Shown here: one piece after another, positions 769 to 24,000 of the stretch | Layout: each line of letters begins with the position of its first letter | Numbering within the stretch: the stretch's first letter is position 1 | Source: Deltaproteobacteria bacterium | GTDB taxonomy: Bacteria; Desulfobacterota; Dissulfuribacteria; Dissulfuribacterales; QOAL01 | Length of the DNA: 24,000 nucleotides | NCBI GenBank assembly: GCA_015489365.1 | Contig: WFZW01000237.1 | Span: 2,211 to 26,210 of the forward strand | Direction of reading: 5' to 3' | Position numbers and translations under genes: made by a program | Notes under the pieces: generated by a model | What the model was told of the DNA's origin: nothing | Databases searched by the model: none | Seen by the model: the letters and a program-made list of their open reading frames with translations, nothing else

Positions 769-3700
769 TCATTTCTCAAGCCTTACCGCGCACACCTTGT
801 ATTCAGGGGTCATGGTCTTCGTATCCATGCCGGGGCTGGTAAGGAAATTCGTAAGGGTCTTCTGGTAATGGAAGGACATGAACACGGTCCCAGGCCTGCT
901 GCGCCTGGTCACCCTTGCACGGACCTTTACCACGGCCCTCCGTGAGACCACCTTCACCATGTCACCATCCATGATACCAAGTGCTTCGCAATCAACAGGG
1001 TGAACCTCTACATGTTCCTCCGGCGAGAGGATGTCAAAACCTTCGCACCTGGTCGTCATGGAGGCATTGTTGTAATGCTCAAGGCGCCTGCCGGTTATGA
1101 GGACCAGGGGAAAGTCCTTGTCTGCATCCTCCTCCGGCAGCATGTAGGACACTGGCACAAAATGCCCCTTGCCCCTTGGGAAGGTCTTGGTATGGAGAAG
1201 CGGCGTACCGTGTCTTTCTGAGGCCGATACCGGCCATACCTGCCCGATTTCATCCAGGTAACGGTAGGAAATGCCGGCATAGGCCGGGACCAACTGGGAT
1301 ATCTCTCCCATTATCTGCTCAGGATGGTTGTAGAACATGGGGTATCCCATGGCCTGGGACAAAAGGCACACTATCTCCCAATCTGCCTTTGAAGCACCAG
1401 GGGCCTCAAGGGCCTTGTTGACACGGCGCACCCGCCGTTCCCCGCTGGTAAAGGTCCCATCCTTTTCGTAAAAACTGGCTGCAGGAAGGATTACGTGGGC
1501 AAACTTCGCGGTCTCGATCATGAACATGTCTTGCAGTACCAAGAAATCAAGGGCCCTTAACGCCTTATGCACATGAGCAATGTTTGCCTGGGTCTGGGCA
1601 GGATCGTATCCCACGCAGTAGAGCCCCTTGAAGGTGCCTTCTATGGCCTTGGTATACATCTGGGGTTCCAGCAGGCCCTCGGTGGTCGGCAGGCTATCAA
1701 CCCCCCAGGCCCTTGCAAAGCTCTCCAGCACCTTCTCGTCATCGGTGGCCTGATACCCTGGATAGGTATATGGAAGGGTACCCATATCACATGCACCCTG
1801 AACGTTATTCTGCCCCCTTAAGGGATCGATACCATTATGAGGCCTACCTACATGACCGGTGGCAAGCACCAGATTCGCAAGGGCCATGACACCGGCTGTC
1901 CCACCCTTGTGCTCTGCAACGCCCAGGCCATAAAGTATAAGGGCATTGTTCGCCTGGGCATATTTTCTTGCCGCCTTTACTATATCCTCCGCTGGCACCC
2001 CGGTGATCTCAGCGGTCTTATCCGGCGTACAATCTGCGATATGTTTCCTGAGCGCATCGATATTTTCGGTTCGTGCGGAGATAAAGGCATCATCCTGCAA
2101 TCCTTCCTTGAAGATCACGTGGAGCATCCCGTTTAACAATGGGATGTTGGTACCTGGTTTGAGTCTGAGCCATATGCCTTCTGGTTGGGCCTCGGCAATG
2201 GCTGCCACATCGGTACGCCTGGGATCTATCACTATCAGGTCTGTTCCCTGCCTTACCGCCTCCTTTACCTTGAGCCCAACGATAGGGTGCGCCTCTGTTG
2301 TGTTCGAACCACATATGAGGAGGCAATCGGTACCGATGATCTGTTCAAATGGGGTGGTGGCTGCCCCGCTTCCCAGTGTGGCCAGCAGACCGCTGACCGA
2401 TGGAGCGTGTCAGACCCGGGCACAATTATCTATGTTATTGGTCCCCCATACCCCCCTTGCAAGCTTCTGTAGGAGATAATTCTCCTCATTGGTGCATCTA
2501 GATGATGCAAGTATGCCAAGGCTGTCCGCCCCATAGGCCTCCTTTATCCGCATGAAACGGGCTGCTGTGAAACGAAGGGCCTCGTCCCAATCCACCTCCC
2601 TGAAGGGTTCCTCTATGCTATCCCTGATGAGCGGCCTTGTAAGCCTATCCTTATGACGGTAAAAGGTATAGCCAAACCTGCCCTTTACGCACAGATTCCC
2701 CCAGTTTGGCGGACGTTTCCTGTCTGCCCTCACCTCTATCAAGGATCCATAGTTTACCAGCAGGTCCAGGCTGCAACCGGTTCCGCAATAGGTGCACACG
2801 CTCTTTACGGGCTTGACCTGGGAAGGAAGAAGCGGCACGATCACGGCCTTCTTGGAAAGTGCCCCGGTAGGACAGGCATCCACACATGCACCACACGATA
2901 CGCACTTTTCGTTCAAGCCTATGGAGACATCCTGCATGGTACCCGTCTTTGGATCCTCCTTTATCTCAAGAACCAGTGCCCCGTACCTGCAACTACGTTC
3001 ACACCTGGTGCACCCTATACACTTGTTGGGATCTACCTGAATGAAGGGATGGGAAGAGTCGATCTTGTATCTCATCCTTGAAGGCGCCTTGTTGGTCTTC
3101 ACCTTGTAATCTATGGAAAGCTCCCTATAGGTACATTTCGAAAGACCTGAGCAGCCGCATCTAAGGCACCTCTTCGCCTCCCTGACCGCCATCTCCTCGG
3201 AGAATCCAAGGGCGACCTCGTCAAAATCCTGGGTCCTTCTCTCAGGGGGGCGGCTTGGCATGATTTCGTTCAACCTGATGGAATAACCATCGAAGTTGTG
3301 CATGTCCACGTCTTCGAATCTCTTGCCCTTGGTAAAATTAAACCTGGGTTCGATCAGGCCCACCTTTTCCTTTTCCAGGAATTCATGGATAGATTCTGCG
3401 GCCCTGCGGCCTGCCGCAACCGCCTGTATAACCGTTCTGGAACCACTTACCGCATCCCCACCGGCAAAGATGCCAGACACGCTGGTCTTCATGGTACTTG
3501 GGTGGGCCTTAATGGTCTTTCTAGGGGTCACGGCAATGGAGGCCTCAAGCTCACCAAAACTCTGGAAGGTGATGTCGCCCTCCTGACCAAGGGCAGAGAT
3601 GACCGTATCCCCATCCCAAAACAATCTCGACCCTGGCATGGGTACAGGCAGCCTTATTCCCCGCTCATTGGGCTCGCCCAATATGGTCCTTGCCATCTCC

Positions 3701-4884
3701 ACCTTGATGCCGTTTTCGACCTCAAAGAGTCTCATGGGCATAGCCATGAGGAAAAATTGTACCCCTTCCTTTTCTGCCTCACCTATATCCCGTTGGTGTG
3801 CCGGAAGCTCCACCCTGGACCTGGGATAGATAACGGTTACATCCTCAGCTCCAAGACGCTTAGCACTCCTTGCGGCATCGACCGCTATGTCGCCACCGCC
3901 TATAATAAGGACCTTCTTCCCTATCCTGGGTGCTGATCCCGTATTGATGCGCCTTAGAAACTTCAACCCATCTATTGCAAGCTGTCCACCCTCAACCTCC
4001 AGTGGTTTCTGCCTGGAAAGGCCGGTGGCTAGAAAGATGGATTCGAACCCATCATCTCTTAGATCCTGGAGGGTAAAATCCTCTCCCCAACTCTTTCCCG
4101 TCTTGACATGGATACCCAATTCGAGGATGGAACGTATCTCCTTGTCCAGTGCCTTGTCCGGAAGCTTGAAGTTTGGGATACCGTAGCGAAGCAGGCCGCC
4201 TAATTTCTCTGCGGCCTCGAATATCCACACCTCATGGCCCAATTTCCTAAGATAGTAGGCACAGGAAAGGCCTGCTGGCCCACCACCTACGATGGCTACC
4301 TTGTGACCTGTAGCTGGAGCAATATCCCTTTCCCTGTAACCGTGTTCAAGGGCATAGTCCGCAACGAATCGCTTCAGGTGATTGATGGCTATTGCCTCGT
4401 CCAGGAGTACACGCCGACAGCGGGTTTCGCAAAAACGCGGGCACACCCTACCCACTGATACAGGCAATGGATTCTTTTCCTTTATCAACCTAAGGGCGGC
4501 CTCGTATTCCCCCTTGGCCACCAGATTCACGTAACCCTGGACATTGATCCCCCCTGGACAGGTCAGATTACACGGGGCTCGGCAATCTCCATAGTGATTA
4601 TCGGCAAGGGCCTGTAGCCTTTCCTTCCTGAATGCCTCCAGCTCCTTTGTCCGGGTTTCTATCTGCATCCCTGGTGCAACCTCGGTGCTGCATGCACGTA
4701 CCCTGCCACTGCCAGCAACCTCCACCATGCACAGGAGACACGGCCGCCTCGAATCCTCTCCTTCCGGGAGATAGCACAGGGTTGGGATGTATATTCCTGC
4801 CTGTTGCGCCGCCTTGAGTATAGTAATCCCCTGGGATACCTGTATTTCCTTACCGTCTATTATTATCGTATATAATTCGCCCAT
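769..4884 (-). CDS. fdhA: Selenocysteine formate dehydrogenase catalytic subunit, 1371 aa read through the TGA at 2410-2412. It is fused N-terminally to a 2Fe-2S ferredoxin domain and a GltD/NfnB-like FAD-NAD(P)H oxidoreductase module.
   Basis: ORFs 2410..4884 and 769..2232 share one frame; the only stop between them is the TGA at 2410-2412. Readthrough gives ..NNIDNCARV-U-HAPSVSGLLATLGSGAATTPFEQIIGTDCLLICGSNTTEAHPIVGLK..IDPRRTD.., the CARV[C/U]H Mo/W-bisPGD formate dehydrogenase active-site box. The N-terminus has a 2Fe-2S fold (CYLPEGEDSRRPCLLCMVEV), GltD-type Fe-S motifs (GRVCPRFCETRCRR), two Rossmann GxGxxG motifs (VAIVGGGPAGL, VLIIGGGDIAVD), then 4Fe-4S motifs (CIGCTRCERSC, CVSCGACVDACP, CTYCGTGC). 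Confidence 0.93.
2380..2398 (-). promoter_or_regulatory. Candidate bacterial SECIS hairpin for the fdhA UGA
   Basis: RNA: UGA CAC GCU CCA UC-GGUCAGC-GGUCU-GCUGGCC. This is a 7-bp stem (one G-U) with loop GGUCU, starting 11 nt after the UGA. It resembles the E. coli fdhF SECIS apical region (..GCAGGUCUGC..) as I recall it. Confidence 0.6.
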
Positions 4885-9415: not shown

Positions 9416-9440
9416 CTTGATCCTCTCTGAGAAATATTTC

Positions 9441-9480
9441 TGTAAATTTTCACGCGGCCTGTATACCAACACCGCGCATC
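9441..9480 (-). promoter_or_regulatory. Degenerate fifth copy of the recurrent leader element, upstream of acsB
   Basis: Transcribed strand: GATGCGCGGTGTTGGTATACAGGCCGCGTGAAAATTTACA. It retains the inner stem (CGCGG / CCGCG) and the ..GGCCGCRTGAAA.TTT block seen in the four strong copies. It ends 25 nt before the acsB ATG. Confidence 0.35.
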
Positions 9481-9534
9481 TCTTTATATGGAAGGTAAAT
9501 ATACTTCCTTACCACAAAGTGACTAGCCTCCCGG

Positions 9535-13412: not shown

Positions 13413-13805
13413 CTAACGGTGAATGGACTCAGCGTCGCTGAGTACAGAGGACATGTGCCTGGCTGCCTCCACTATTGGTTCGGTCTCGCCCCTGGATGCA
13501 AAGAACATCTCCAGCCGGGCAGGATCTATGCCCAACTCATCGAGTATCTTCTTGGCATAGCCAACCCTCTTGGCTGCCCTCTGGCTTCCAGACAGATTGT
13601 GGCATTTGTCAATCTGGCATCCGGCCACAAAGACTGCCTCTGCCCCCTGCTCAAAGGCGTCAAGCAGGGTATTGATCTCTAGCTTTCCGGTACACGGCAA
13701 CCTTTTTATCCTGAGCCCCTCAGGGACCAGGCCGGCCTTTTTCAAGGTATCCACATCGACACTTGAGGTATAATTACAACAAAAACCAAGAATTACATCG
13801 CTCAT
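13413..13805 (-). CDS. mvhD: MvhD/FlpD-family iron-sulfur protein (all-Cys paralogue)
   Basis: 130 aa with ..ILGFCCNYTS.., ..RLPCTGKLE.., ..GAEAVFVAGCQIDKCHNLSG.. (MvhD signature). The ATG overlaps the upstream stop (ATGA at 13802-13805). Confidence 0.88.
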   Translation of the reverse strand: MSDVILGFCCNYTSSVDVDTLKKAGLVPEGLRIKRLPCTGKLEINTLLDAFEQGAEAVFVAGCQIDKCHNLSGSQRAAKRVGYAKKILDELGIDPARLEMFFASRGETEPIVEAARHMSSVLSDAESIHR

Positions 13806-14353
13806 ACCATTGTCCCCTTCTCCTCAAGGGACGGTGCCAGAGAGATGGCCTCGGCAGGACATTCCAGCACACAAATACCACATCCCTTGCAAAGTTCTGG
13901 CTCTATATATGCGTAGCCCTCATCGGCAATATGGGGCGCACCGAAGGGACACAGCCTGACACAGGTTAGGCAGGCAACGCACTTGCCCGCATCTACCCTG
14001 GCAAACTGTCCAAGTGCAGCAAGCATCTCGGTGGTTACCTTGCCCCTTGCTACTGCTTCCTGCCTGAGGGCCTTGATCACGTCGCTGCAGCGTACTTGCT
14101 GGGGACAGACGGGAACACAGCTCTGGCACTGGGAACATGCCCATATCACATCCGTACCCAGAAGCTGGTCTGTAAGCCCGAGCGCTACCATGTGAACGAT
14201 CTTTCTAGGATCAAATTCCGGCACCACCTTTTCTACAGGGCACACACCACTGCATGCCCCGCAGGCAAAGCAGCGCGCTACTGTCTCACATCCTGATTGG
14301 GTGGAAATCTCCCTCTCCAACCCATGGTCCAATTTAGCTGCCTGAATAGTCAT
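13802..14353 (-). CDS. HdrC-like 2x[4Fe-4S] domain fused to a 2x[4Fe-4S] ferredoxin domain
   Basis: 183 aa with four CxxCxxCxxxCP motifs. CFACGACSGVCP and CSQCQSCVPVCP are separated by a helical spacer of about 40 aa, the HdrC-type arrangement. CVACLTCVRLCP and CKGCGICVLECP follow. Confidence 0.8.
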   Translation of the reverse strand: MTIQAAKLDHGLEREISTQSGCETVARCFACGACSGVCPVEKVVPEFDPRKIVHMVALGLTDQLLGTDVIWACSQCQSCVPVCPQQVRCSDVIKALRQEAVARGKVTTEMLAALGQFARVDAGKCVACLTCVRLCPFGAPHIADEGYAYIEPELCKGCGICVLECPAEAISLAPSLEEKGTMV

Positions 14354-14361
14354 TTTATATT

Positions 14362-14446
14362 CCCAAAACTTTCATGCGGCCCTTATCCCTGGTGCCGCAC
14401 CCTTGGTCATGAAAATACAGCCCTTACCCGAGATGTATTTTCACGG
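14362..14446 (-). promoter_or_regulatory. Recurrent leader element, copy 1 (upstream of the hdrC-like gene)
   Basis: Transcribed strand: CCGTGAAAATACATCTCGGGTAAGGGCTGTATTTTCATGACCAAGGGTGCGGCACCAGGGATAAGGGCCGCATGAAAGTTTTGGG. It fills most of the 112-nt gap between the mvhD(Sec) stop and the hdrC-like ATG. Confidence 0.6.
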
Positions 14447-14465
14447 TAAATAAACCGGACATGCC

Positions 14466-15272
14466 CTATGCCGTCATCAAGACCCAGCCGGCTTCATCCT
14501 GGCTGATCTTCTTCCTCCTGGAAAGGCCCTCCAGGATCTTTTGAATCTCGTCTCCGGATGCCCCGGTTGCCTCGGCAAGGTGACCTTCGTCCATGGCCCC
14601 CTCCTCCTTCAGCAGAATAAGCACCTCTTCGGTTATCCTCTGCTGTCTTATCGCGGGCAAAACCTTCTTTGCCACCCCTGCCTCTATAGCTTCTGGGGTG
14701 TAATCACCACCCTTGTGAAGGCCCTTTGACAGGGTGCCCAGTGAGGTGCGGGGCTTCCTGGCCGATGCAGCCCTGACTGCGGCCTTAAGACGCCTGTCGA
14801 TAACTGGCTTGGCCTCTTCGCCCTCACCGGTTCCAAGGGCACCCATCCCCTTGATTCTCTTTACATATCCCGTGATCAACTCGACAAATCGCGGGGCCTC
14901 GGCTGCAGACGCCCAGTCGAGAGACAGCCTCTCTGGCTCCACCCCTATATCCTTCAGGGTCTGACGGCAGGTCTCTGCAACTACCATGGCTTCGTAATTA
15001 CCAGACTGGTAATGACATTCACCCAAGTGTCACCCGCCTGTAAACACCCCGTCGGCACCACATCGGAAGGCCTCGAGAACAAACCGCACGTCTATGCGGC
15101 CGGTACACATCACCCTTATGACCCTGACGTTAGGTGGATACTGATACCTGGATACTCCTGCCGAATCAGCCGCTGCATAACAGCACCAGTGACAAAAAAA
15201 CCCCAATATATGTGGATCGAAGCCCTCCCGGGTCATTTCATTCTCCTTCAAGTTCGCTTTTTCTTGACTCAT
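14466..15272 (-). CDS. mvhD: MvhD/FlpD-family protein with selenocysteine (TGA at 15030-15032) and a ~125-aa C-terminal extension; 268 aa
   Basis: ORFs 15030..15272 and 14466..15026 are in frame, separated only by TGA-CAC. Readthrough gives ..[47 protein letters not shown].., the MvhD/VhuD G[C/U]HxGxCHY box. The start ATG lies 3 nt after the hdrA stop. Confidence 0.85.
14997..15013 (-). promoter_or_regulatory. Candidate SECIS hairpin for the mvhD UGA
   Basis: RNA: UGA CAC UUG GGU GAA UGU C-AUUACC-AGUCU-GGUAAU. This is a 6-7 bp stem with a GUC-containing loop, starting 16 nt after the UGA. Confidence 0.5.
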
Positions 15273-15275
15273 GGA

Positions 15276-18200
15276 CTATGCCTCGTCTTCACACTTCCCA
15301 CCAGAAAATGCATGGATCTGGGCAAGGATTTCCTGATCTGTAAAGCCCCCCATGGAAATCGCAAGGGTTGGACAGTGGGAGGCGCATATACCGCATCCCT
15401 TACATGAAGCGGTAATGGTTTGGGCCTTACGCCTCTTATTCACCTTGACCAGCCTTATGGCGTTAAACGGACATAGGCTTTCACAGATACCACAGCCTAT
15501 ACATGTTTTCTGATCCACCTGGGAGACTATGGGGGCCACTGCCACCTTGCCCTTGGCGAGGGGAATCACTGCCTTTGCTGCCGCGGCCTTGGCCTGTGCA
15601 ATGGACTCGTCCAGAGACTTTGGCCCGTGTGCGAGTCCACAAAGATAGAACCCATCCACTGCGACCTCCACCGGCCTGAGCTTCGCATGGGCCTCCAGGA
15701 AGAAGCCATCGGAGGTCAAGGGGGCCTTGATAACCTTGGCCAGTTCGACATTGTCCCCTGGGGCTATCCCGGTCGAAAGTACAACGAGGCTTGCCGGGAT
15801 CTCTATATCCTCGCCCATCAGGCGGTCAAAGCCCTTTACCGCTATCCCCCTGCCACGTCTTACGACCTCTGGCCGCCTATCAGGCATATAACGAAGGAAT
15901 ACGATACCCTTCTCTCTAGCCTCCCTGTAGAGGTCTTCGTGAAAACCATACGTGCGTATGTCTCGGAAAAATATGTATATATTGGTATCAGGGCTGTGTT
16001 CCTTGATCATCAAGGCATTTTTTATGGCCTGGGAGCAACAAAGCCTGCTGCAATGCTTGAGATCCTCCCCACGACTGCCCACGCACTGGATCATGACCAC
16101 GTTCCTGGCATTCTTGAGGAACGCCTTGCCACGTTTGAGCTTTTCTTCCAGTTCAAGCTGGGTCATGACCCGGTTGTTCTCACCATAGAGATATCCCGAA
16201 GGCTTATATTCCCTGGCCCCGGTTGCAAGGACTGCCACACCGTGATTTATCACCTTGGTCTTGCCCTTGGAGTTGATAGTAGTTGTAAAATTCCCAACGT
16301 AACCGGAGATGGATTCCACCTGGGACTCAAGCTGGACATGTATATTTGGATGATCCTTGACCTTCTTCTTCAAGCTATCCAACACGGATGACGCATCCTG
16401 CCCGTCCAGGGTCCATGCAAGCCTACTGAGATTTCCGCCAAGTTTCCTGCCCTTTTCCACGAGTACGCACCTGTACCCCTGGTCAGCAATACTTATGGCC
16501 GCTGTCATCCCCGCGGCCCCTCCACCTATAACCAGTGCATTGGGGGTGACATCCACGGTTGGCTGGGCAAGGGGCTCAAGGAGCCTTGCCTTGGCAACTG
16601 CCATGCGAACCAGGTCCTTCGATTTCTCGGTAGCGGCCTCAGGCTCCTGGGAATGTACCCAGGCACATTGATCCCTGATGTTCGCCATCTCTATGAGGGC
16701 AGGGTTCAACCCAATGGAACGCAAGGTCTCCTGGAACAGGGGTTCGTGGGTCCTGGGGGAACAGGCCGCGATAACTACCCTGTTGAGCCTGTTTTCCTTT
16801 ATCTTCTCCGCAATGCTCTTTAGGGCATCCTGTGAACAGGAATAGAGGGTATCTTCGTATAAGACCACCCCTGGAAGGGAACCGGCATAGTCCCTTACTG
16901 CCTTTACATCCACGGTGCCGGCTATGTTTACGCCACAGTGACAGACAAAGACCCCGATCCTGGGCTCTTCTGCCTCGATAGCCTTGTCCTCTTCGGGGTA
17001 TGTCACGCTTATGGTACAGGTATTGCGACTCTCGGCAAGAAGCTCACTGGCCATTGCCGCAACGCCTGAGGCCTGGGTAACACTTTCCGGGATATCCTTT
17101 GGCCCCTGGAATGCCCCTGCCACGTAAATACCCTCTCTTGTAGTGGCAAGTGGGGCACCTGCGGTGGTCTTACAGAAATCGTAATGATTAAGCTTGATGT
17201 CTGCCAATTCAGCAATCGACTGGGCATCCTCAGGTGAATCCAGCCCCACTGATAGGACTACCATGTCAAAAAGATCGGAGTGTGACTTGCCGTCATCTGT
17301 AGTCCAGGTCAGGGCCAGCATCCCGTCTACTTGTTCAACCCTTGGGACCCTTGCCCTGATTACGTGCAAACCATATTTTTCCTGGGCCCGCTGGCGTGCC
17401 TCGTCAAAGCCCTTTCCCTGGGTCCTGACGTCCATGAAGAAAAGCGAGATGTCCAGATCCGGTTCATGTTCCTTGGCAACCGAGGCCTCCTTGATGGCAT
17501 ACATACAACATACGGTGGAACAGTAGCCATTCCCGCATGTCTCATCCCTTGAGCCGATACATTGGAGAAAGGCAATTTTCCTGGGTGTCTTGTTATCAGA
17601 GGGACGTACTATGTGGCCCTCGGTTGGACCGGAGGCACAGGTCAGGCGCTCGAACTCGTAGCTGGTCACCACATCGGGATAGCGACCATAGCCGAATCTT
17701 TCAAGGACAGAGCTATCCACCCTGCCAAACCCGGGTGCAAGCACTACTGCCCCTACCTCGAGTGCATGCTCCTTAGGTTTTTGTGAAAAATCTATTGCCT
17801 TGGCCGTACAGGTCTGGGCACACAGGTTGCATGTTTCGTAGTTTACCCGCAAGCAGGCCTTGGCATCTATATAATAGCTCGATGGGATTGCCTGGGCATA
17901 ATCTATATGGGGTGCCCTCGTAACCTCCAGTCTTTCATTGTAGGTATCCACTACCGGCCTTGGACAATACATGGTGCACATACCGCAGGCAGTACACTTG
18001 TCTTCATCAATAAACCTTGGCTCCTGATGCACCCTTGCCACAAATTGTCCGGGTTTACCCTCAAGGGCCTCAAGCCTTGCGTTACTGAGTATTTCGATAT
18101 TTGGAGACCGACCGGCCTCAACCAACTTTGGCGCAAGGATTCACAAGGAACAATCGTTGGTAGGGAAGGTCTTATCCAACTGGGCCATGACCCCGCCCAC

Positions 18201-18314
18201 CGAGGCCTTCTTCTCCACCAGATAAACATAGTAGCCGAGTTCGGAGAGATCCAGGGCCGTCTGGACCCCTGCAACCCCTCCACCAAGCACCAATATCGCA
18301 CCGTACTGGCTCAT
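15276..18314 (-). CDS. hdrA: HdrA-like flavoprotein with two tandem HdrA-type modules and selenocysteine at codon 58 (TGA 18141-18143); 1012 aa
   Basis: The ATG at 18314 (GGAG 8 nt upstream) opens [74 protein letters not shown].., in frame with ORF 15276..18125. There are HdrA hallmarks in module 1 ([18 protein letters not shown]) and in module 2 ([13 protein letters not shown].., [18 protein letters not shown]), plus 4Fe-4S motifs [24 protein letters not shown] and [12 protein letters not shown]. Confidence 0.88.
18104..18119 (-). promoter_or_regulatory. Candidate SECIS hairpin for the hdrA UGA
   Basis: RNA: GAGGCC-GGUC-GGUCUC. This is a 6-bp stem (one G-U) with loop GGUC, starting 21 nt after the UGA. 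Confidence 0.5.
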
Positions 18315-18409
18315 TATCTAACTCCAATTGTTGACTAGCATCCATTGAGCAGATGCTGGCAGATGTTTTCTTACCCTTTAAAATAGTTTCCTGGCCAGGC
18401 CTTACTCTA

Positions 18410-20407
18410 TTATCCTACGCCCCCAGGCTTACAGCCAACGCCGGGGATACCAGAACCTAGTTCGCGCCTCATGGCCATATCGAACAACACACGCTCCTTC
18501 TTCTTGTCGAGCCCCAGGGCAGCCCGCTTGGCATTTATTCTGTCAATCATCTTGTTGGCAAAATCATTTGATGTCTGAGCAAGATCCCACATGCCACCAT
18601 ATAGATTCTGCATCTCCTTGAAGCAAAAATCAGTAACCACCTTGGACCCGGTAGTAGGGAAGCTTGGTCCAAAGACCACATAGGCACCGCTTGACACAAA
18701 GTACTGGCCAATGGAAACCGCCTTCTCACTCATCCACTGTGGGGCACAACCGGCCATGGGAAGATCACTGATATCTTCACCCAGCCCGCCGGTATGTACC
18801 ATCTCTGTAGCGGCTATGAGCAGGCGGCTGTTGTCTACGCAGGACCCCATATGGAGCACTGGTGGACACCCTACGGCTTCGAGCACCTCCTTCAGGCCGT
18901 CACCTGCCATCTCCATGGCCTCAGGTGAAAGGAGACCTGCCCTTCCCATGCCGGTGGCTGCACAACCCGTTACAAGGACGAGCACATCGTTGGCTATGAG
19001 CTCCTTGGCCAGGTCTATGTGGACCTCCTCCATGACCTTGTAGTTGTCGCAGCCCACTATAGCGGCCACACCCCTTATCCTGCCGTTTGCAATGTTGTCG
19101 TTCAAGGGCTTGTAGGAGGCCCTGAACCTTCCTCCAAGGATATAATTGATGGTTTCATGGCTGAAACCAGCGACTACATCCATCTGATGCACAGGAATGA
19201 AGTGCTTTCCACGCTCCGGGTACTTGGAAATGGCCCTTTTAGTAATCTCCTTTGCTACGTCCAGGGCCCGTCCCTCTTCGAACTGGATATGGGTAGCACC
19301 TGGTATTTTTGCCTTGGAGGACGTAGTGATAAGCTCCGTGTGGTAATGATTGGCCACTGGGGACAAACCCTGCATAACACACTGGACGTCCACCACCATG
19401 GCCTCTACGGCACCGGTTGCCAGGACTACTTCCTGCTGGACGAAACTTCCCGAGATCGGGATACCCCGTCTCATCAGTATCTCGTTTCCCGTACAACACA
19501 CACCCGTTAGATTTATCCCCTTGGCACCTGCTTTCTTGGCAGCGGCCACCATTTCAGGATCATTGGCCACCATAGCCAGGGCCTCGGCCAATACCGGTTC
19601 ATGTCCGTGAACAGTGATATTGACCTCATCCTCCTTGAGCACCCCTATGTTGACCTTCGTGCGCAGGGGAACCGGGGTACCAAACATGATATCGGAAAGC
19701 TCGGTGGCTATCATCGAGGCACCCCATCCATCGGCAAGGGCACACCTGGCGGCCTGAAAAAGGAGGTTCTCGTAATGCTGATCCACCCCCATATGGGTAC
19801 GGTGCATTATCTCCACCACCTCCCGGTCGATCCCGCGGGGAATAATACCCGTATTCTTCCAGATCTCCTGCCTGGGAGCCGGAGCACGCTTTACAAAGGA
19901 AAGGACTCCCTGCTGCTGGCCGAACTCGCTTATAAGGAACTCCCCAACCTCTATGGCAAGATCCGTCTTGTCCTTCTCGGCCGGATCGATGCCCAATCTC
20001 AAGGCAGTTTCCCTGAGCTTTATGCCATCCTTTATCTCATAGGGTGTCTCCCCCTTGGCGGTCTCAAGGAAAGCAAAGGCTACCCCGCGGCCATGGTCCA
20101 TGTGGGCCGCAGCCCCGCCAGCCACTATCCTGGCGAAATTCCTGGCAGCAACCGTAGATGCGTCTGCTCCGCAGACACCTACCATGGTCTCCACCCCTTC
20201 TATGATCTGGCATGGCCCCATGTTGCAGTTCTTACAACACGTTCCACCCTTTCCAAACAAACAGGGCTCTATCCCTCTACTTTCCACCCTATGGGCCGCA
20301 GTAACAACCCCCTCTGCACAGGAGTTACATAAAACCTCACGATTGGCCTCGCACTGAATGCCGGGGCATCCCCCGTTTCCTTTTTCAAAGCGTCTGCTGG
20401 TATCCAT
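18410..20407 (-). CDS. acsA: Ni-Fe carbon monoxide dehydrogenase catalytic subunit (CODH component of CODH/ACS), 665 aa
   Basis: CooS/AcsA-type sequence: ..CLFGKGGTCCKNCNMGPCQI.. (B/D-cluster region), ..HGHEP.., ..TGVCCTGNE.., ..GCDN.., ..HMGSCVDNSR... I chose the ATG at 20407 (AAGGAGAAGTTTGGTT-ATG). The ORF-track start at 20467 has no RBS and would run through the leader element. Confidence 0.92.
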   Translation of the reverse strand: MDTSRRFEKGNGGCPGIQCEANREVLCNSCAEGVVTAAHRVESRGIEPCLFGKGGTCCKNCNMGPCQIIEGVETMVGVCGADASTVAARNFARIVAGGAAAHMDHGRGVAFAFLETAKGETPYEIKDGIKLRETALRLGIDPAEKDKTDLAIEVGEFLISEFGQQQGVLSFVKRAPAPRQEIWKNTGIIPRGIDREVVEIMHRTHMGVDQHYENLLFQAARCALADGWGASMIATELSDIMFGTPVPLRTKVNIGVLKEDEVNITVHGHEPVLAEALAMVANDPEMVAAAKKAGAKGINLTGVCCTGNEILMRRGIPISGSFVQQEVVLATGAVEAMVVDVQCVMQGLSPVANHYHTELITTSSKAKIPGATHIQFEEGRALDVAKEITKRAISKYPERGKHFIPVHQMDVVAGFSHETINYILGGRFRASYKPLNDNIANGRIRGVAAIVGCDNYKVMEEVHIDLAKELIANDVLVLVTGCAATGMGRAGLLSPEAMEMAGDGLKEVLEAVGCPPVLHMGSCVDNSRLLIAATEMVHTGGLGEDISDLPMAGCAPQWMSEKAVSIGQYFVSSGAYVVFGPSFPTTGSKVVTDFCFKEMQNLYGGMWDLAQTSNDFANKMIDRINAKRAALGLDKKKERVLFDMAMRRELGSGIPGVGCKPGGVG

Positions 20408-20423
20408 AACCAAACTTCTCCTT

Positions 20424-20504
20424 AAACTTTCATGCAGCCCGCATACCTGTGCCGCACCCCTGGACATGGAAACATCCCCGCTGAAGTGGTTGTTTCTTCA
20501 GGGG
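20424..20504 (-). promoter_or_regulatory. Recurrent leader element, copy 2 (upstream of CODH)
   Basis: Transcribed strand: CCCCTGAAGAAACAACCACTTCAGCGGGGATGTTTCCATGTCCAGGGGTGCGGCACAGGTATGCGGGCTGCATGAAAGTTT. It is followed directly by the AAGGAG RBS. Confidence 0.6.
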
Positions 20505-20536
20505 TTCCTTTTGATGAACAAGGTATAACAGAGTTC

Positions 20537-21424
20537 CTATTCGATCCCGGCGAACTGTTTTGCAGCCTGTACAGTATTTTTCATAAGCATTGTTATGGTC
20601 ATAGGGCCTACGCCACCCGGGACCGGGGTAATGGCGGCGGCCTTTTCCTTTATGGCCTCAAAATCCACATCTCCACAGAGTATGGCCTTGCCCTCAGGGG
20701 TCTTGCCTATCCGGTTAACCCCTACGTCAATGACTACGACCCCCTCCTTTACCATATCCGCGGTGATGACCTTTGGTCTTCCTGCAGCCACTATCAAGAT
20801 ATCCGCCCTCCTGGTATGAAAAGCGGTATCCCTAGTCCTGGTATGGCATACAGTAACCGTGGCGTTTCCACCTTCCCTTTTTTGAAGCATCAAATTGGCA
20901 ATCGGCTTCCCAACTATGTTGCTGCGGCCGACCACAACCACCTCTGCGCCGCTGGTTTCCACACCGCTGCGAACGAGCATCTCCAGTATCCCGTGTGGAG
21001 TACAAGGCAGAAAGCACTTCTCTCCGATTACCATCTTGCCCACATTTACAGGATGGAAACCATCAACGTCCTTGTCCGGTGAGATTGCATACAGGACCTT
21101 GCTTTCATCTATATGCTTGGGCAGGGGAAGCTGGACAAGGATGCCATGGATGGAGTCATCATTGTTATATTTCTCTATCAGGCTCAATAGTTCATCTTCC
21201 TTGATATCATCCGGTTGATTGTCCTGGATAGAATGAAATCCAAGGTCGTGGGCAGTGCGCTGCTTTGCTGTAACATACGAGATAGAGGCTGGATTTTCGC
21301 CTACGAGGATGGTTACAAGACCGGGCACAACACCGTGCTTTTCTTTGATTTCAGCCACCTCGGCCTTGAGCTCCTCCCTGATCTGTTTGGCGATCTCGGT
21401 TCCACTGATAATCTTTGCCGACAT
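20537..21424 (-). CDS. folD: Bifunctional 5,10-methylene-THF dehydrogenase / 5,10-methenyl-THF cyclohydrolase
   Basis: 295 aa, FolD throughout (..PGLVTILVGENPAS..YV..K.., ..GILVQLPLP.., ..DKDVDGFHP.N.G.., ..VVVGRSNIVGKP.., ..TPVPGGVGPMT..). RBS AGGAGGAATT-ATG. Confidence 0.95.
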   Translation of the reverse strand: MSAKIISGTEIAKQIREELKAEVAEIKEKHGVVPGLVTILVGENPASISYVTAKQRTAHDLGFHSIQDNQPDDIKEDELLSLIEKYNNDDSIHGILVQLPLPKHIDESKVLYAISPDKDVDGFHPVNVGKMVIGEKCFLPCTPHGILEMLVRSGVETSGAEVVVVGRSNIVGKPIANLMLQKREGGNATVTVCHTRTRDTAFHTRRADILIVAAGRPKVITADMVKEGVVVIDVGVNRIGKTPEGKAILCGDVDFEAIKEKAAAITPVPGGVGPMTITMLMKNTVQAAKQFAGIE

Positions 21425-21444
21425 AATTCCTCCTGCTCATTGGG

Positions 21445-21537
21445 TTCCAAACCTTCATGCGGCCCTAGGCCTGGTGCCGCACCCTGGGCAAGGGATGGTA
21501 CATGGTTTCCTTGCAGGGATCGGTCGAACCGCCAAGG
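21445..21537 (-). promoter_or_regulatory. Recurrent leader element, copy 3 (upstream of folD)
   Basis: Transcribed strand: CCTTGGCGGTTCGACCGATCCCTGCAAGGAAACCATGTACCATCCCTTGCCCAGGGTGCGGCACCAGGCCTAGGGCCGCATGAAGGTTTGGAA. It ends 20 nt before the folD ATG. Confidence 0.6.
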
Positions 21538-21701
21538 ATCTTATATTCAAATTTGTAAAGCCAGTCCTTTTTTTGCAAACCCCAGGCCACCTAGGACCCG
21601 ATCCATGTTATACGTAACCTACATAAAACCCCTTGTAATCATTAAGCATTTATCGAGAAAACGATAATACTAATTTCACAAGCGTGCTACGCACAATTTG
21701 T

Positions 21702-21737
21702 GGGGAAAAAAACCCCGGCCCTGGTGTCTTTTTCCCC
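21702..21737 (-). terminator. Stem-loop with an embedded U7 tract just after the fhs stop (possible terminator or stability element)
   Basis: RNA: GGGGAAAAAGACACCAGGGCCGGGGUUUUUUUCCCC. GGGGAAAAA pairs with UUUUUCCCC. It starts 16 nt after the fhs stop. This is not a canonical GC-stem plus U-tail design, hence the low confidence. Confidence 0.35.
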
Positions 21738-21753
21738 AATCCTCATATTATTC

Positions 21754-23517
21754 CTAAAACAGGCCCTTAACCTTTCCGGTCGCTGTATCTACATCTATCC
21801 GCCTGTAGGCAGGATCGGAACCGGTCCCGGGCATGAGGCTTATAGCACCGGCCACAGGCACGACAAAACCGGCCCCCTTATACGTCAGGATGTCGCGTAC
21901 ATGGAGCTTCCAGCCCTTTGGAACCCCCTTCAAGTTAGGATTATCAGATAGGCTGAGGTGGGTCTTGACCATGCAGGTGCCAAGTTTTGAAAGTTCTGGA
22001 TCCTTCTCCATTGCCTCTGCCTTCTTTTCGGCCTCAGGGGTATAGACTACCCCGTCGCCACCATATACCTCCTTGGTTATAAGCTCGATACGCTGCCTGA
22101 GAGGCATGTCCAGATCATACAGGAACTTGAAGTTGTTTTCCTCGTTGCAGGCATCTACGACTGCATCGGCGAACTCGAGCGCTCCGTCACCACCCTTGAG
22201 CCAGTGCTCGGAAACGGCCACCCTGGCACCAGCATCCTCACATAGCCTTCTTACGGCCTCGATTTCGTTCTTGGTGTCGGTATAGAATGCATTGATACAA
22301 ACCACGGGGTTTATGCCTGCCTTTTTCACGGTCTCTATATGATGCAGCAGGTTTACAGTCCCCTTCTCGACCCACTCCACGTTTTCGCTGTTATATTCCT
22401 CAGGCATCGGGCGTCCTGGCCTTGGTATGGGCGCTCCGCCATGGCACTTGAGGGCCCTTATGGTGGCCACAACCACGGCACAGTTTGGTTTGAGCCCACT
22501 GAAGCGGCACTTAAGATTCCAGAATTTTTCAAACCCGATATCCGCCCCGAAGCCACTCTCGGTAACCAGGTAATCACCAAGCTTTAGCCCTATCTTGTCC
22601 GCGATCACAGAGGATTGGCCAATGGCGATATTTGCGAAGGGGCCTGCATGTATGAGACATGGCTGCCCCTCTATCGTCTGCATCAGGTTTGGATTTACCG
22701 CCTCTACCATCCAGGCGGTCATGGCGCCAGCTACCTCCAAGTCCTCCGTGGTGATCGGTTTACCCGTCCTGTCGTATGCTACTACGATCCTTCCTATACG
22801 CTCTCGCAAGTCTTTGAGATCATTTGCAATAGCTAAGATCGCCATTATCTCTGAGCTTACCGCTATATTGAAACCGCTCTGCATGGTAAGGCCATCCATG
22901 CGTCCACCGAGACCAATGGTAATATTTCTCAATGCCTGGGCACAAAAATCTATAATCCATTTGAATTCCACGCTCTTGGGATGGACGTTGAGCCTTTTGA
23001 GACCCCTTTGGGCAAGCTGTTCATCCGTATAGTTGGACTCGTGCTGCATCCTGGCGGTCAGGGCCACCATTCCCAAGTTATGGGCATTCATGATGGAGTT
23101 GATGTCGCCGGTGAGCCCAAGGGAAAATTTGGACAATGGAATCACCTGGGCCAACCCCCCGCCGGCAGCGCTACCCTTTATGTTAAACGTCGGCCCACCA
23201 GAAGGCTGGCGAAGGGCACCGATCACCTTTTTCCCCCTCTTGCCAAGGCCCTCCATGAGTCCAACGGCGCATGTGCTCTTTCCTTCCCCGAGCGGGGTTG
23301 GTGTAATGGCAGTGACGTCTATGTACTTGCCATTGGGCCTATCCTTTAGCCTTTCCAAGGCCTTGGCATAATCGATCTTCGCCACGTAATGGCCATAGGG
23401 CAGAAGCTCCTCCTTTTCCAGGGCAAGTTCTTCGCCGAGTTGATAAACGGTCTTCATATGCTGCTCTGCAGCCTCGGCTATCTCCCAGTCTTTCATTTTG
23501 GTTGGATCCAGGTTCAT
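21754..23517 (-). CDS. fhs: Formate--tetrahydrofolate ligase (formyl-THF synthetase)
   Basis: 587 aa, FTHFS throughout (..[12 protein letters not shown].., ..[15 protein letters not shown].., ..[13 protein letters not shown].., ..[13 protein letters not shown]..). RBS GAAGGAGGATTTGATCG-ATG. Confidence 0.96.
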
Positions 23518-23592
23518 CGATCAAATCCTCCTTCAAAATATTCTGGACGTACAGTGACGCCGGATTAAAATACCATTTCTAGGGGGTAGCTT

Positions 23593-23674
23593 CCAAACCT
23601 TCATGCAGCCCGTATCCCCGTGGCTGTCCCCTGAGCATGAAGATACCGCCTTTGCCCAGGGTGTATTTTCACGC
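23593..23674 (-). promoter_or_regulatory. Recurrent leader element, copy 4 (upstream of fhs)
   Basis: Transcribed strand: GCGTGAAAATACACCCTGGGCAAAGGCGGTATCTTCATGCTCAGGGGACAGCCACGGGGATACGGGCTGCATGAAGGTTTGG. It is bracketed by a perfect 9-bp inverted repeat (23579-23587 / 23706-23714). Confidence 0.6.
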
Positions 23675-23806
23675 TAAATTGTGCAACCCCATGGCATGAG
23701 ATACAACCCCCTAGAGAGAATGTATTTTCGAAACATACACCTTTGCCTATGCATCGGATGCACCGAAAGATGAAAAGAGCCCGGGCATGGCGGAATCTTC
23801 CGCCAA

Positions 23807-23820: not shown

Positions 23821-23869
23821 GCATAGGTACCTGAACAACGCAGAACTTGTCAATCCCTGGAGGATCAAA

Positions 23870-24000
23870 TTGATAATAGAAATAGACCCGCGTCGGCCAA
23901 GGCCCCATCAGATACAAAGGATAATCGATGCAGTAAAAAGGGGAGAGATAATCGTCTACCCCACTGATACCTGCTACGGGATAGGAGCAGACATCTTCAA
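23870..24000 (+). CDS. tsaC: Sua5/YrdC/TsaC-family L-threonylcarbamoyladenylate synthase, N-terminal part (continues beyond the window)
   Basis: The frame is open from 23810. A TTG at 23870 lies 6 nt after GGAGGA. The translation (M)IIEIDPRRPRPHQIQRIIDAVKRGEIIVYPTDTCYGIGADIF contains the YPTDT.YG.G motif of the YrdC fold. It is not in the ORF track because under 60 codons lie inside the window. Confidence 0.7.
   Translation, partial: MIIEIDPRRPRPHQIQRIIDAVKRGEIIVYPTDTCYGIGADIF

What the first reader, a model, noticed from the sequence alone, without database searches (positions are those of the whole stretch)
14362..23674. Conserved leader element repeated upstream of four Wood-Ljungdahl transcription units: candidate new cis-regulatory RNA or operator
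Four intergenic regions on the transcribed (minus) strand carry the same block just 5' of a start codon: hdrC-like (14362-14446), CODH (20424-20504), folD (21445-21537) and fhs (23593-23674). Core alignment: M1 CATGACCAAGGGTGCGGCACCAGGGATAAGGGCCGCATGAAAGTTTT. M2 CATGTCCAGGGGTGCGGCACAGGTATGCGGGCTGCATGAAAGTTTA. M3 TTGCCCAGGGTGCGGCACCAGGCCTAGGGCCGCATGAAGGTTTG. M4 CATGCTCAGGGGACAGCCACGGGGATACGGGCTGCATGAAGGTTTG. An outer helix is possible in every copy (UUCAUG.../...CAUGAA; 8 bp in M4, 7-8 bp in M1 and M2). An inner helix is kept despite sequence change: GCGGC/GCCGC in M1 and M3, GCGGC/GCUGC with a G-U in M2, and CAGCC/GGCUG in M4. The inner loop is G-rich and 11-13 nt long. The block links methyl-branch genes (fhs, folD, metVF module) and carbonyl-branch genes (CODH, and weakly acsB), so it could be a shared sensor for the whole pathway. 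I cannot match it to any riboswitch class I remember. The folate-linked ZTP/pfl class, which is the one known upstream of fhs and folD, has different conserved boxes.
Basis: partly seen in the sequence, partly recalled or inferred. Interest (0 to 1): 0.85.

Follow-up and report, generated by a model that had tools for sequence, protein, structure and literature searches.

The report
Lineage-specific repeat placed before start codons
The block repeated in front of four Wood-Ljungdahl genes is real, but it is one family of a roughly 88-base, two-hairpin repeat that also sits in front of unrelated genes and occurs only in this organism and one close relative, so it is not a sensor for the carbon-fixation pathway.

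Summary
The four copies exist at the stated coordinates and are far beyond chance. Each is the 3' half of a longer unit of about 88 nt: hairpin A, hairpin B and an invariant tail GCAUGAARGUUU. No Rfam family matches.

The pathway-sensor reading fails.
- The same contig, just outside the window, carries four more copies: 5' of clpB, 5' of an HD-domain hydrolase gene, and two antisense. There are also degenerate copies before acsB and near an HU gene.
- The element occurs only in this MAG and one relative (FolD 96% identical). It is absent from 80 related genomes.
- In relatives with the same gene order, the folD-cooS and mvhD-hdrC spacers are 16 and 29 nt, so M1 and M2 are recent insertions.
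- Covariation is not statistically usable.

Two findings argue against plain junk.
- Six of ten copies end 8-24 nt before a same-strand start codon (P about 1e-4).
- Hairpin B plus tail is 82-92% identical between the two species, against 66-70% at third codon positions.

Best reading: a lineage-specific interspersed repeat of mobile or duplicative origin that survives as a co-transcribed leader next to the ribosome-binding site. Its function is inferred, not shown.

The parts
14362..14451 (-). Copy M1, an intact unit (hairpin A, hairpin B, tail GCATGAAAGTTT at 14366-14377). It ends 8 nt before the ATG of the hdrC-like gene.
   Evidence: Model R1 scores 96.5 bits (L001 16974-17063). The fold is two hairpins, -36.3 kcal/mol, z -4.8. 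The orthologous spacer in relatives with FolD 93% identical is only 29 nt.
20420..20508 (-). Copy M2. Hairpin A is degenerate (GAAACA/UGUUUC). Hairpin B and the tail are intact. It ends 12 nt before the cooS ATG.
   Evidence: R1 scores 72.1 bits. The ortholog M2' in L082 scores 71.9 bits. In relatives with FolD 93% identical the folD-cooS spacer is 16 nt.
21445..21523 (-). Copy M3. Hairpin A is replaced by an unrelated small hairpin (GCAAGG/CCUUGC). Hairpin B and the tail are intact. It ends 20 nt before the folD ATG.
   Evidence: R1 scores 58.3 bits. Hairpin B plus tail is 82% identical to the L082 ortholog, against 60% for the segment just upstream.
23591..23679 (-). Copy M4, an intact unit, 73 nt before the fhs ATG.
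   Evidence: R1 scores 77.9 bits. It is absent as a separate unit in L082, which has a single hybrid unit at this site.
23680..23735 (-). Partial unit directly upstream of M4 (hairpin A plus the 5' half of the core). Together with M4 it forms a tandem.
   Evidence: Read directly from the sequence. It aligns to the single unit M4' of L082.
9440..9519 (-). Degenerate copy in the metF-acsB spacer (GCGCGGT...GCCGCGTGAAAATTT). It ends 24 nt before the acsB ATG called at 9415.
   Evidence: R1 scores 22.6 bits, E 0.002. Sequence. The acsB start comes from the gene call.
13802..14353 (-). hdrC-like 4Fe-4S protein gene, downstream of M1.
   Evidence: Pfam Fer4 families.
18410..20407 (-). cooS (Ni-CO dehydrogenase) gene, downstream of M2.
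   Evidence: Pfam Prismane, E 2e-167. Start taken from the gene call.
20537..21424 (-). folD gene, downstream of M3.
   Evidence: Pfam THF_DHG_CYH and THF_DHG_CYH_C.
21754..23517 (-). fhs gene, downstream of M4.
   Evidence: Pfam FTHFS, E 4e-233.

Best explanation
The block is a member of a lineage-restricted family of short interspersed repeats.

Anatomy. One unit is about 88 nt:
- an A/T-rich 5' flank (TTTAC-like);
- hairpin A (CGUGAAAAUAYAYCCU-GGGUA-AGGGCURUAUUUUCAUG);
- hairpin B (GYGUGCGGCRCC, a 6-13 nt loop, GGCCGCAU);
- an invariant single-stranded tail, GCAUGAARGUUU.

Origin. The family arose and spread, by transposition in trans or by recombination and duplication, in the ancestor of this MAG and one sister species. 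It inserted into spacers that are only 16-30 nt long in other relatives.

Placement. Copies persist preferentially where the tail abuts the Shine-Dalgarno region of the next gene in the sense orientation. The genes concerned are unrelated: fhs, folD, cooS, the hdrC-like gene, acsB, clpB and an HD-domain hydrolase gene.

Mechanism (inferred, not shown). The unit is transcribed as part of the mRNA. Its two stable hairpins insulate the downstream ribosome-binding site from upstream structure and can protect the 3' end of the upstream RNA segment. The A/U-rich tail (GAARG|UUU) acts as a ribosome standby or S1-binding site, or as an RNase E-type processing site. Either way the downstream cistron stays expressed despite the insertion.

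It does not sense a Wood-Ljungdahl metabolite.
For: Shown by tool results:
- There are eight strong copies (58-98 bits), one degenerate copy and one remnant in 36.5 kb of the window's contig. Four of the strong copies lie outside the Wood-Ljungdahl cluster, and copies occur on both strands.
- Model R1 and nhmmer find the family only in this contig and in L082 (FolD 96% identical). The search covered 1.27 Mb from 87 loci, including six species with FolD 89-93% identical.
- Other collections gave nothing real: JGI metagenomes returned one chance hit in coding DNA, viral contigs none, plasmids and phages none.
- Relatives with the same gene order have 16-nt and 29-nt spacers where M2 and M1 sit, so these copies are insertions.
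- Copy number differs between the two sister genomes. M4 is a tandem in the window contig and a single unit in L082. The HU remnant is present only in the window contig.
- Intact copies fold as two consecutive hairpins.
- Six of ten copies end 8-24 nt before a same-strand start codon. The expected fraction under uniform insertion into non-coding DNA is 0.094, giving a binomial P of about 1e-4.
- Hairpin B plus tail is 82-92% identical between orthologous copies. Third codon positions of the flanking genes are 66-70% identical and the rest of the spacers 70-78%.
- No Rfam family matches at E <= 10.
Against: - Only 36.5 kb of this genome and 12 kb of the sister genome could be read. Genome-wide copy number and the gene set served are therefore unknown.
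- No transposase, terminal inverted repeats or target-site duplication were found, so mobility is inferred only from presence/absence and copy-number differences.
- The strong sense-strand bias next to ribosome-binding sites, and conservation above the neutral proxy, would also fit a true regulatory element bound by a trans-acting factor.
- The conservation could instead reflect gene conversion among copies. L082 copies M2' and M3' share a C where the window's M1-M3 share a T.
- No transcript data exist. Transcription through the units, and any processing at the tail, are unproven.
Confidence: 0.55

Rival explanations
1. The element is a new riboswitch-like leader RNA, or an operator, that senses a Wood-Ljungdahl metabolite or cofactor. 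It would co-ordinate the methyl and carbonyl branches.
For: Four strong copies and one degenerate copy sit 5' of fhs, folD, cooS, the hdrC-like gene and acsB within one cluster. No known Rfam family explains them. The 5' arm UUUUCAUG can pair either with the upstream GUGAAAA or with the downstream CAUGAAAG, a switch-like layout.
Against: Equally good copies precede clpB and an HD-domain hydrolase gene, and others are antisense. The element is absent from the same cluster in all 80 related genomes and from strains with FolD 93% identical and the same gene order. There M1 and M2 are plainly insertions. Covariation does not exceed the shuffles. M3 lacks the outer helix.
Confidence: 0.03
2. The element is the binding site of a trans-acting post-transcriptional regulator, either an RNA-binding protein or a small RNA. 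The regulator would recognise hairpin B plus the invariant tail. The repeat would define a young, lineage-specific regulon assembled by dispersal of the repeat, covering C1 and energy metabolism, a chaperone and nucleotide metabolism.
For: The 12-nt tail is invariant apart from one A/G position. Placement is next to the ribosome-binding site on the sense strand. Hairpin B plus tail is conserved above the neutral proxy between species, whereas the hairpin A equivalents of M2 and M3 drift.
Against: No candidate regulator is known or visible. The downstream genes have no obvious common theme. Three of ten copies are antisense or not next to a gene start. Gene conversion could explain the conservation.
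Confidence: 0.15
3. The element is a purely selfish or neutral repeat. Its position next to ribosome-binding sites would reflect an insertion-target preference, or that site being the only tolerated one in a compact genome. It would have no role in expression.
For: The family is lineage-restricted, and copy number varies between sister genomes. Decayed copies exist (C7 lacks the 5' arm of hairpin A; the HU and acsB copies are remnants). The 5' flanks are similar (TTTAC, TTTAG, TTTGC), as expected for a target motif.
Against: In three long spacers (about 330 nt and 324 nt) the units still sit at the extreme gene-proximal end. Hairpin B plus tail is more conserved than synonymous sites.
Confidence: 0.15
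4. The element is a translational-coupling cassette like the mycobacterial MIRU. A mini-ORF would start at the invariant AUG (AUG-AAR-GUU...) and deliver ribosomes to the downstream start codon.
For: The invariant tail reads ATG AAR GTT, and its only variable base is a synonymous Lys position. Four copies have a stop at codon 4, using all three stop codons (TGA, TAG, TAA). In M1 the mini-ORF stops 1 nt before the hdrC ATG. MIRUs are described as inserting at start codons with an internal ORF coupled to the gene (PMC12548453).
Against: Mini-ORF length ranges from 3 to 35 codons. The distance from its stop to the gene start ranges from -74 to +47 nt, and differs between orthologs. The AUG is base-paired at the foot of hairpin B and has no well-spaced Shine-Dalgarno sequence.
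Confidence: 0.07
5. The element acts at the DNA level, as a portable promoter or operator module bound by a transcription factor or an alternative sigma factor.
For: The sense orientation directly upstream of genes, including a back-to-back pair in the divergent clpB/HD spacer, is what promoters would show. The nested palindromes could be operator half-sites.
Against: There is no sigma-70 match in the units (and direct reading). The GGCAC...GC spacing is wrong for sigma-54 in most copies (direct reading). Palindrome arms are 13-31 nt apart, which is atypical for operators. M1 and M2 lie inside what is a tightly packed operon in relatives. A conserved TTGACA lies about 250 nt upstream of M4, which places M4 inside the 5' UTR.
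Confidence: 0.05

Closest known systems
REP/BIME-type repetitive extragenic palindromes (enterobacteria, pseudomonads)
   Same: Short, non-coding, hairpin-forming, multi-copy and extragenic. They are transcribed within operons, are specific to a narrow lineage, and are known to act on mRNA segment stability (general knowledge; reviews PMC2229807 and PMC3184786).
   Different: This unit has two different hairpins plus an invariant single-stranded tail. Copies sit mainly 5' of the next gene's ribosome-binding site in the sense orientation, rather than 3' of genes. No REP-associated transposase (RAYT) was seen, and genome-wide copy number is unknown.
MIRU (mycobacterial interspersed repetitive units)
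   Same: Small repeats found between genes of operons, oriented with transcription and located at the start of the downstream gene. They are thought to be tolerated because expression of that gene is preserved (PMC12548453).
   Different: MIRUs carry an ORF coupled to the gene with a -4 nt overlap. Here the units end 8-24 nt upstream of the start codon, and the internal mini-ORF is inconsistent in length and coupling. There is no sequence similarity.
Bacterial MITEs such as Correia/NEMIS and ERIC
   Same: Non-autonomous elements shorter than 200 bp. They are co-transcribed with neighbouring genes, and their RNA hairpins influence the processing and stability of adjacent transcripts (PMC2229807).
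   Different: No terminal inverted repeats, no TA ends and no target-site duplication could be identified here.
ZTP (pfl) and THF riboswitches
   Same: Leader position upstream of folate and C1 genes such as fhs and folD.
   Different: There is no covariance-model match even at E <= 10. The element is not conserved outside two sister genomes, and it also precedes clpB and an HD-domain hydrolase gene.

Membership tests
Any described RNA family (Rfam 15, including ZTP/pfl, THF-I, THF-II and flpD) | Covariance-model match at or near the family's gathering score | tested here: not met
   cmscan at E <= 10 over the whole window and over L090 17600-20700 reported no hit on any copy, apart from a meaningless miRNA hit of 17.7 bits at E 8.
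Riboswitch or metabolite-sensing leader (generic) | Conserved across species in front of genes of one pathway | tested here: not met
   The element is absent from 80 related genome loci and from relatives with FolD 93% identical and the same cluster. It is present in front of clpB and an HD-domain hydrolase gene.
Riboswitch or metabolite-sensing leader (generic) | Statistically supported covariation in the proposed helices | tested here: inconclusive
Eleven copies were compared. For the two-hairpin model, 78.8% of cells are paired against 76.6% in shuffles, and 6 pairs show double changes. The sequences are too few and too similar.
REP/BIME | Short imperfect palindrome(s), extragenic, in many dispersed copies and in both orientations | tested here: met
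   Two hairpins per unit. Ten copies lie in 36.5 kb, seven on one strand and three on the other, and all lie outside real coding sequence. Genome-wide number is not testable here.
REP/BIME | Associated REP-specific (RAYT, IS200/IS605-like) transposase in the genome | not testable with these tools
   Only about 36.5 kb of the MAG could be reached, and no transposase gene lies in it.
MITE (Correia, ERIC and similar) | Terminal inverted repeats and target-site duplication | tested here: not met
   The unit ends (TTTACCGTGAAAAT... and ...GCATGAAAGTTTGG) are not reverse complements of each other. The flanks show no duplicated target.
MIRU-like coupling repeat | Intercistronic position, oriented with transcription, at the start of the downstream gene | tested here: met
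   M1, M2, M3, the acsB copy, C5 and C6 end 8-24 nt before a same-strand start codon. P is about 1e-4 against uniform insertion.
MIRU-like coupling repeat | Internal ORF overlapping the stop and start codons of the flanking genes | tested here: not met
   The mini-ORF from the invariant ATG is 3-35 codons long, and its stop lies from -74 to +47 nt relative to the gene start. The upstream ATG frame is not kept between M2 and M2'.

The most novel reading that the evidence does not exclude
The repeat is a self-propagating 'portable leader'. It would be a mobile cassette of two insulating hairpins plus an invariant A/U-rich standby or processing site. It would install itself directly upstream of ribosome-binding sites. 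In one thermophilic Thermodesulfobacteriota lineage it would have rewired post-transcriptional control of central C1 metabolism (fhs, folD, cooS, hdr/mvh, acsB) together with stress genes (clpB), possibly through one trans-acting factor that reads the tail.
Probability: 0.2. Interest if true: 0.55.

Novelty: new member of a known kind. Interest (0 to 1): 0.3.

Why it matters
It removes a tempting false lead. What looked like a pathway-wide Wood-Ljungdahl riboswitch is a young repeat family, and searching for a ligand would be wasted effort.

It also documents how a small repeat can colonise the tightly packed junctions of an essential operon, turning 16-nt and 29-nt spacers into 112-130-nt ones, without destroying it.

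The strong bias towards a sense-strand position next to ribosome-binding sites, and the conservation of hairpin B plus tail, are unusual for REP-like repeats. If transcript data confirmed an effect, this would be a natural example of gene-expression signals spread by a mobile repeat in an uncultured hydrothermal lineage.

The repeat also causes annotation errors, for example an ORF start called inside a copy.

Tried and rejected
**Ideas tested and rejected**
- Leader peptide from the ATG in UUUUCAUGNCC. The frames and lengths differ among M1, M2 and M4, and a 1-nt indel shifts the frame between the orthologs M2 and M2'.
- Sigma-54 promoter (GGCAC-N5-TTGC). The spacing is wrong in M1, M3 and M4 on direct reading.
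- Sigma-70 promoter. There is no hit in the units.
- CsrA-type GGA loops, a G-quadruplex and an integron attC site (GTTRRRY). The required motifs are not consistent among copies on direct reading.
- IS200/IS605-like strand-specific insertion. Copies lie on both strands.

**Searches that gave nothing useful**
- A metagenome-contig scan with AGGGN{16,18}GGGCYGCATGAARGTTT found one chance hit in coding DNA.
- Two viral-contig scans found 0 and 2 chance hits.
- blastn of one unit against plasmids and phages found nothing relevant.
- A protein search with the ClpB fragment, meant to extend the contig, returned only unrelated fragments.
- A protein search with concatenated six-frame translations of the repeat, meant to catch spurious ORFs through other copies, found nothing.
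- A look-up of the fdh N-terminal ORF found no record.
- A look-up of the 80-aa MvhD fragment, meant to reach the sister genome's M1 ortholog, returned only the same genome.
- A search for analogous repeats in the Wood-Ljungdahl loci of relatives found only coding or chance repeats.
- Weak R1 hits in L021, L008 and L012 are a terminator and coding DNA, not copies.
Full report
**Observation**

The window's minus strand carries a Wood-Ljungdahl cluster. In order, the genes are:
- fhs (23517..21754)
- folD (21424..20537)
- cooS (20407..18410)
- a selenocysteine hdrA, and a selenocysteine mvhD
- an hdrC-like Fe-S gene (14353..13802)
- a second mvhD
- metV
- a metF-TPR-acsD fusion
- acsB, acsC and acsE
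- a selenocysteine formate dehydrogenase

With three mismatches allowed there are 7 matches against 0.21 expected, and no shuffle out of 100 reached 7. The repeated block is therefore real and lies just 5' of start codons, as described.

**Anatomy**

An intact unit is about 88 nt and contains:
- a TTTAC-like 5' flank;
- hairpin A (CGUGAAAAUACAUCCU-GGGUA-AGGGCUGUAUUUUCAUG, 12 + 4 bp);
- hairpin B (GYGUGCGGCRCC, loop, GGCCGCAU, 6-10 bp, with a G/A-rich loop);
- an invariant tail, GCAUGAARGUUU.

Intact copies fold as two consecutive hairpins. M1 gives -36.3 kcal/mol, z -4.8.

M2 and M3 keep hairpin B and the tail but have degenerate or unrelated hairpins in place of A.

A partial extra unit lies directly upstream of M4. 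A degenerate copy lies before acsB (22.6 bits).

**Known families**

cmscan against all 4227 Rfam families at E <= 10 gives nothing on any copy, in the window or in the more canonical copies outside it.

**Distribution across organisms**

The window comes from a metagenome contig: ENA ERZ23495249 scaffold_327, 56.8 kb, also held as GCA_027043695.1.

FolD-anchored loci were fetched from 80 species representatives. The nearest are Thermodesulfobacteriota MAGs with FolD 89-93% identical and Thermosulfurimonas dismutans at 84%.

Two searches found the element only in the window's contig and in one sister MAG (L082, GCA_024275145.1, FolD 96% identical). These were nhmmer profiles and a calibrated two-hairpin covariance model run over 1.27 Mb from 87 loci. 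L082 has orthologous copies before fhs, folD and cooS.

Weak model hits in other genomes are a terminator or coding DNA. Other collections gave nothing real:
- an exact-pattern scan of JGI metagenomes found only a chance match inside a gene;
- viral contigs gave 0 and 2 chance hits;
- plasmids and phages gave nothing relevant.

Relatives with FolD 93% identical keep the same gene order. Their folD-cooS spacer is 16 nt and their mvhD-hdrC spacer is 29 nt, against 130 and 112 nt here. M2 and M1 are therefore insertions specific to this lineage. No analogous repeat exists in the relatives' loci.

**Distribution within the genome**

Extending the contig 5 kb beyond window position 1 (L090) revealed four more copies:

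| Copy | Score (bits) | Position |
|---|---|---|
| C6 | 89 | ends 18 nt before the clpB start, in the clpB orientation |
| C5 | 98 | ends 20 nt before the start of an HD-domain hydrolase gene; forms a back-to-back pair with C6 in the divergent spacer |
| C7 | 63 | antisense across the 3' end of the HD-domain gene; lacks the 5' arm of hairpin A |
| C8 | 85 | antisense upstream of bamA, inside a probably mis-called bamA start |

A palindromic remnant lies between the S49 peptidase and HU genes. It is absent from the sister genome.

In total there are ten copies in 36.5 kb, on both strands, next to genes with no common pathway. It rules out a Wood-Ljungdahl-specific sensor.

**Is it only junk? 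Two results say probably not**

First, placement. Six of ten copies end 8-24 nt before a start codon on the same strand, and the fhs copy ends 73 nt before. This includes three copies in long spacers of about 330 and 324 nt, where position is not forced. Under uniform insertion into the 2310 non-coding bases, the chance per copy is 0.094, which gives P of about 1e-4.

Second, conservation between orthologous copies in the two sister genomes:

| Segment | Identity |
|---|---|
| Hairpin B plus tail | 82-92% |
| Third codon positions of folD and fhs | 66-70% |
| Remaining spacer | 70-78% |
| Hairpin A equivalents of M2 and M3 | 60-74% |

This fits purifying selection on hairpin B plus tail. Gene conversion is an alternative: both L082 copies share a C where the window's M1-M3 share a T.

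**Structure statistics**

On the 11-copy alignment the two-hairpin model has 78.8% of cells paired and six pairs with changes on both sides. One example is C-G to U-A in hairpin A, in three to four copies. Another is G-C to A-U in hairpin B, in C7. Column shuffles already give 76.6%.

The palindromes are real, but the data cannot separate an RNA structure from a DNA-level palindrome. They offer no statistical covariation.

**Mechanism**

Shown:
- a lineage-restricted multi-copy family;
- insertion into previously short spacers;
- copy-number change between sister genomes (a tandem at fhs here, a single hybrid unit in L082);
- sense-strand bias next to ribosome-binding sites;
- conservation of hairpin B plus tail above the neutral proxy.

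Inferred:
- The units are transcribed. A conserved TTGACA lies about 250 nt upstream of M4 in three genomes. M1 and M2 lie inside an operon.
- The two hairpins insulate the downstream ribosome-binding site and can protect the 3' end of the upstream RNA.
- The single-stranded A/U-rich tail serves as a standby or S1-binding site, or as an RNase E-type cleavage site. GAARG|UUU fits the RN|WUU preference known from the literature (my own knowledge).

The means of spread is unknown. No terminal inverted repeats, target duplication or transposase were seen in the DNA that could be reached.

**Rejected or weaker alternatives**
- A leader peptide is excluded by frame shifts between copies and between orthologs.
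- A MIRU-like coupling ORF from the invariant AUG is attractive. The tail reads AUG-AAR-GUU, with stops at codon 4 in four copies. But ORF length and coupling distance are inconsistent (the MIRU description is from PMC12548453).
- Sigma-70 and sigma-54 promoter readings fail on hexamer match or spacing (and direct reading).
- A trans-factor regulon remains possible and cannot be tested here.

**Verdict**

The leader placement is real and non-random. The element is not a pathway sensor and not a new riboswitch class. It is a new family within the known kind of small bacterial interspersed repeats. Functionally it is closest to REP, MITE and MIRU elements (PMC2229807, PMC3184786), with an unusual preference for a sense-strand position next to ribosome-binding sites.

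The main limit of this analysis is that only about 36.5 kb of the host genome and 12 kb of its sister could be read.

Noticed in passing
window 769-4884 (-), 2357-2415 (-): The formate dehydrogenase gene is split by an in-frame TGA (ORFs 4884..2410 and 2232..769). A SECIS_3-like hairpin follows directly after the TGA (29.7 bits, E 0.0055, below the gathering score of 63). The enzyme probably contains selenocysteine.
   Followed up: partly
window about 18141 (-) and 15027-15029 (-): Two more in-frame TGA codons occur in conserved positions. In HdrA the motif reads [17 protein letters not shown], where homologues have Cys. In MvhD, Pfam FlpD positions 1-59 and 63-123 fall on two adjacent ORFs. 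These are probably selenoproteins. No SECIS search was done for them.
   Followed up: no
window 9535-12729 (-): A single 1064-aa ORF fuses MetF (MTHFR), TPR repeats and a CdhD/AcsD-like domain. The same fusion (1071 aa) is present in relatives with FolD 93% identical (L084).
   Followed up: no
window about 23860-23880 (-); L001 7572, L082, L084: GGATTGACAAG upstream of fhs is conserved in three genomes, although the rest of the spacer differs. It is probably the -35 box of the fhs promoter, which would imply a 5' UTR of 190-340 nt.
   Followed up: partly
window about 21700-21745 (-); also L004, L006, L010: fhs is followed by a GGGGAAAAAG...UUUUUUUCCCC hairpin. Relatives have similar G4A5/U5C4-type hairpins. 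This is probably the fhs terminator, so folD starts a separate transcription unit.
   Followed up: no
L084 10888-10905 and 16808-16838: In relatives that lack the repeat, both junctions that carry M2 and M1 in the window contain the 10-mer GATTCATGAC. The repeat itself contains TTCATGAC in M1. This could be coincidence, or microhomology used for insertion. It is unexplained.
   Followed up: no
L090 20416-20580 (same contig, beyond window position 1): The called BamA ORF starts inside the antisense repeat copy C8, so its first 50 or so codons are a translation of the repeat. The start codon is probably mis-called.
   Followed up: no
L045 5197-19140, L050 4279-20358, L072 6423-13227: Other Desulfobacterota carry a different kind of repeat in spacers around their folD loci. 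These are inverted arrays of tandem heptamers and octamers, for example CACCTTT, TGGAGTAA and AATTGGA. They are unrelated in sequence to the element studied here.
   Followed up: no
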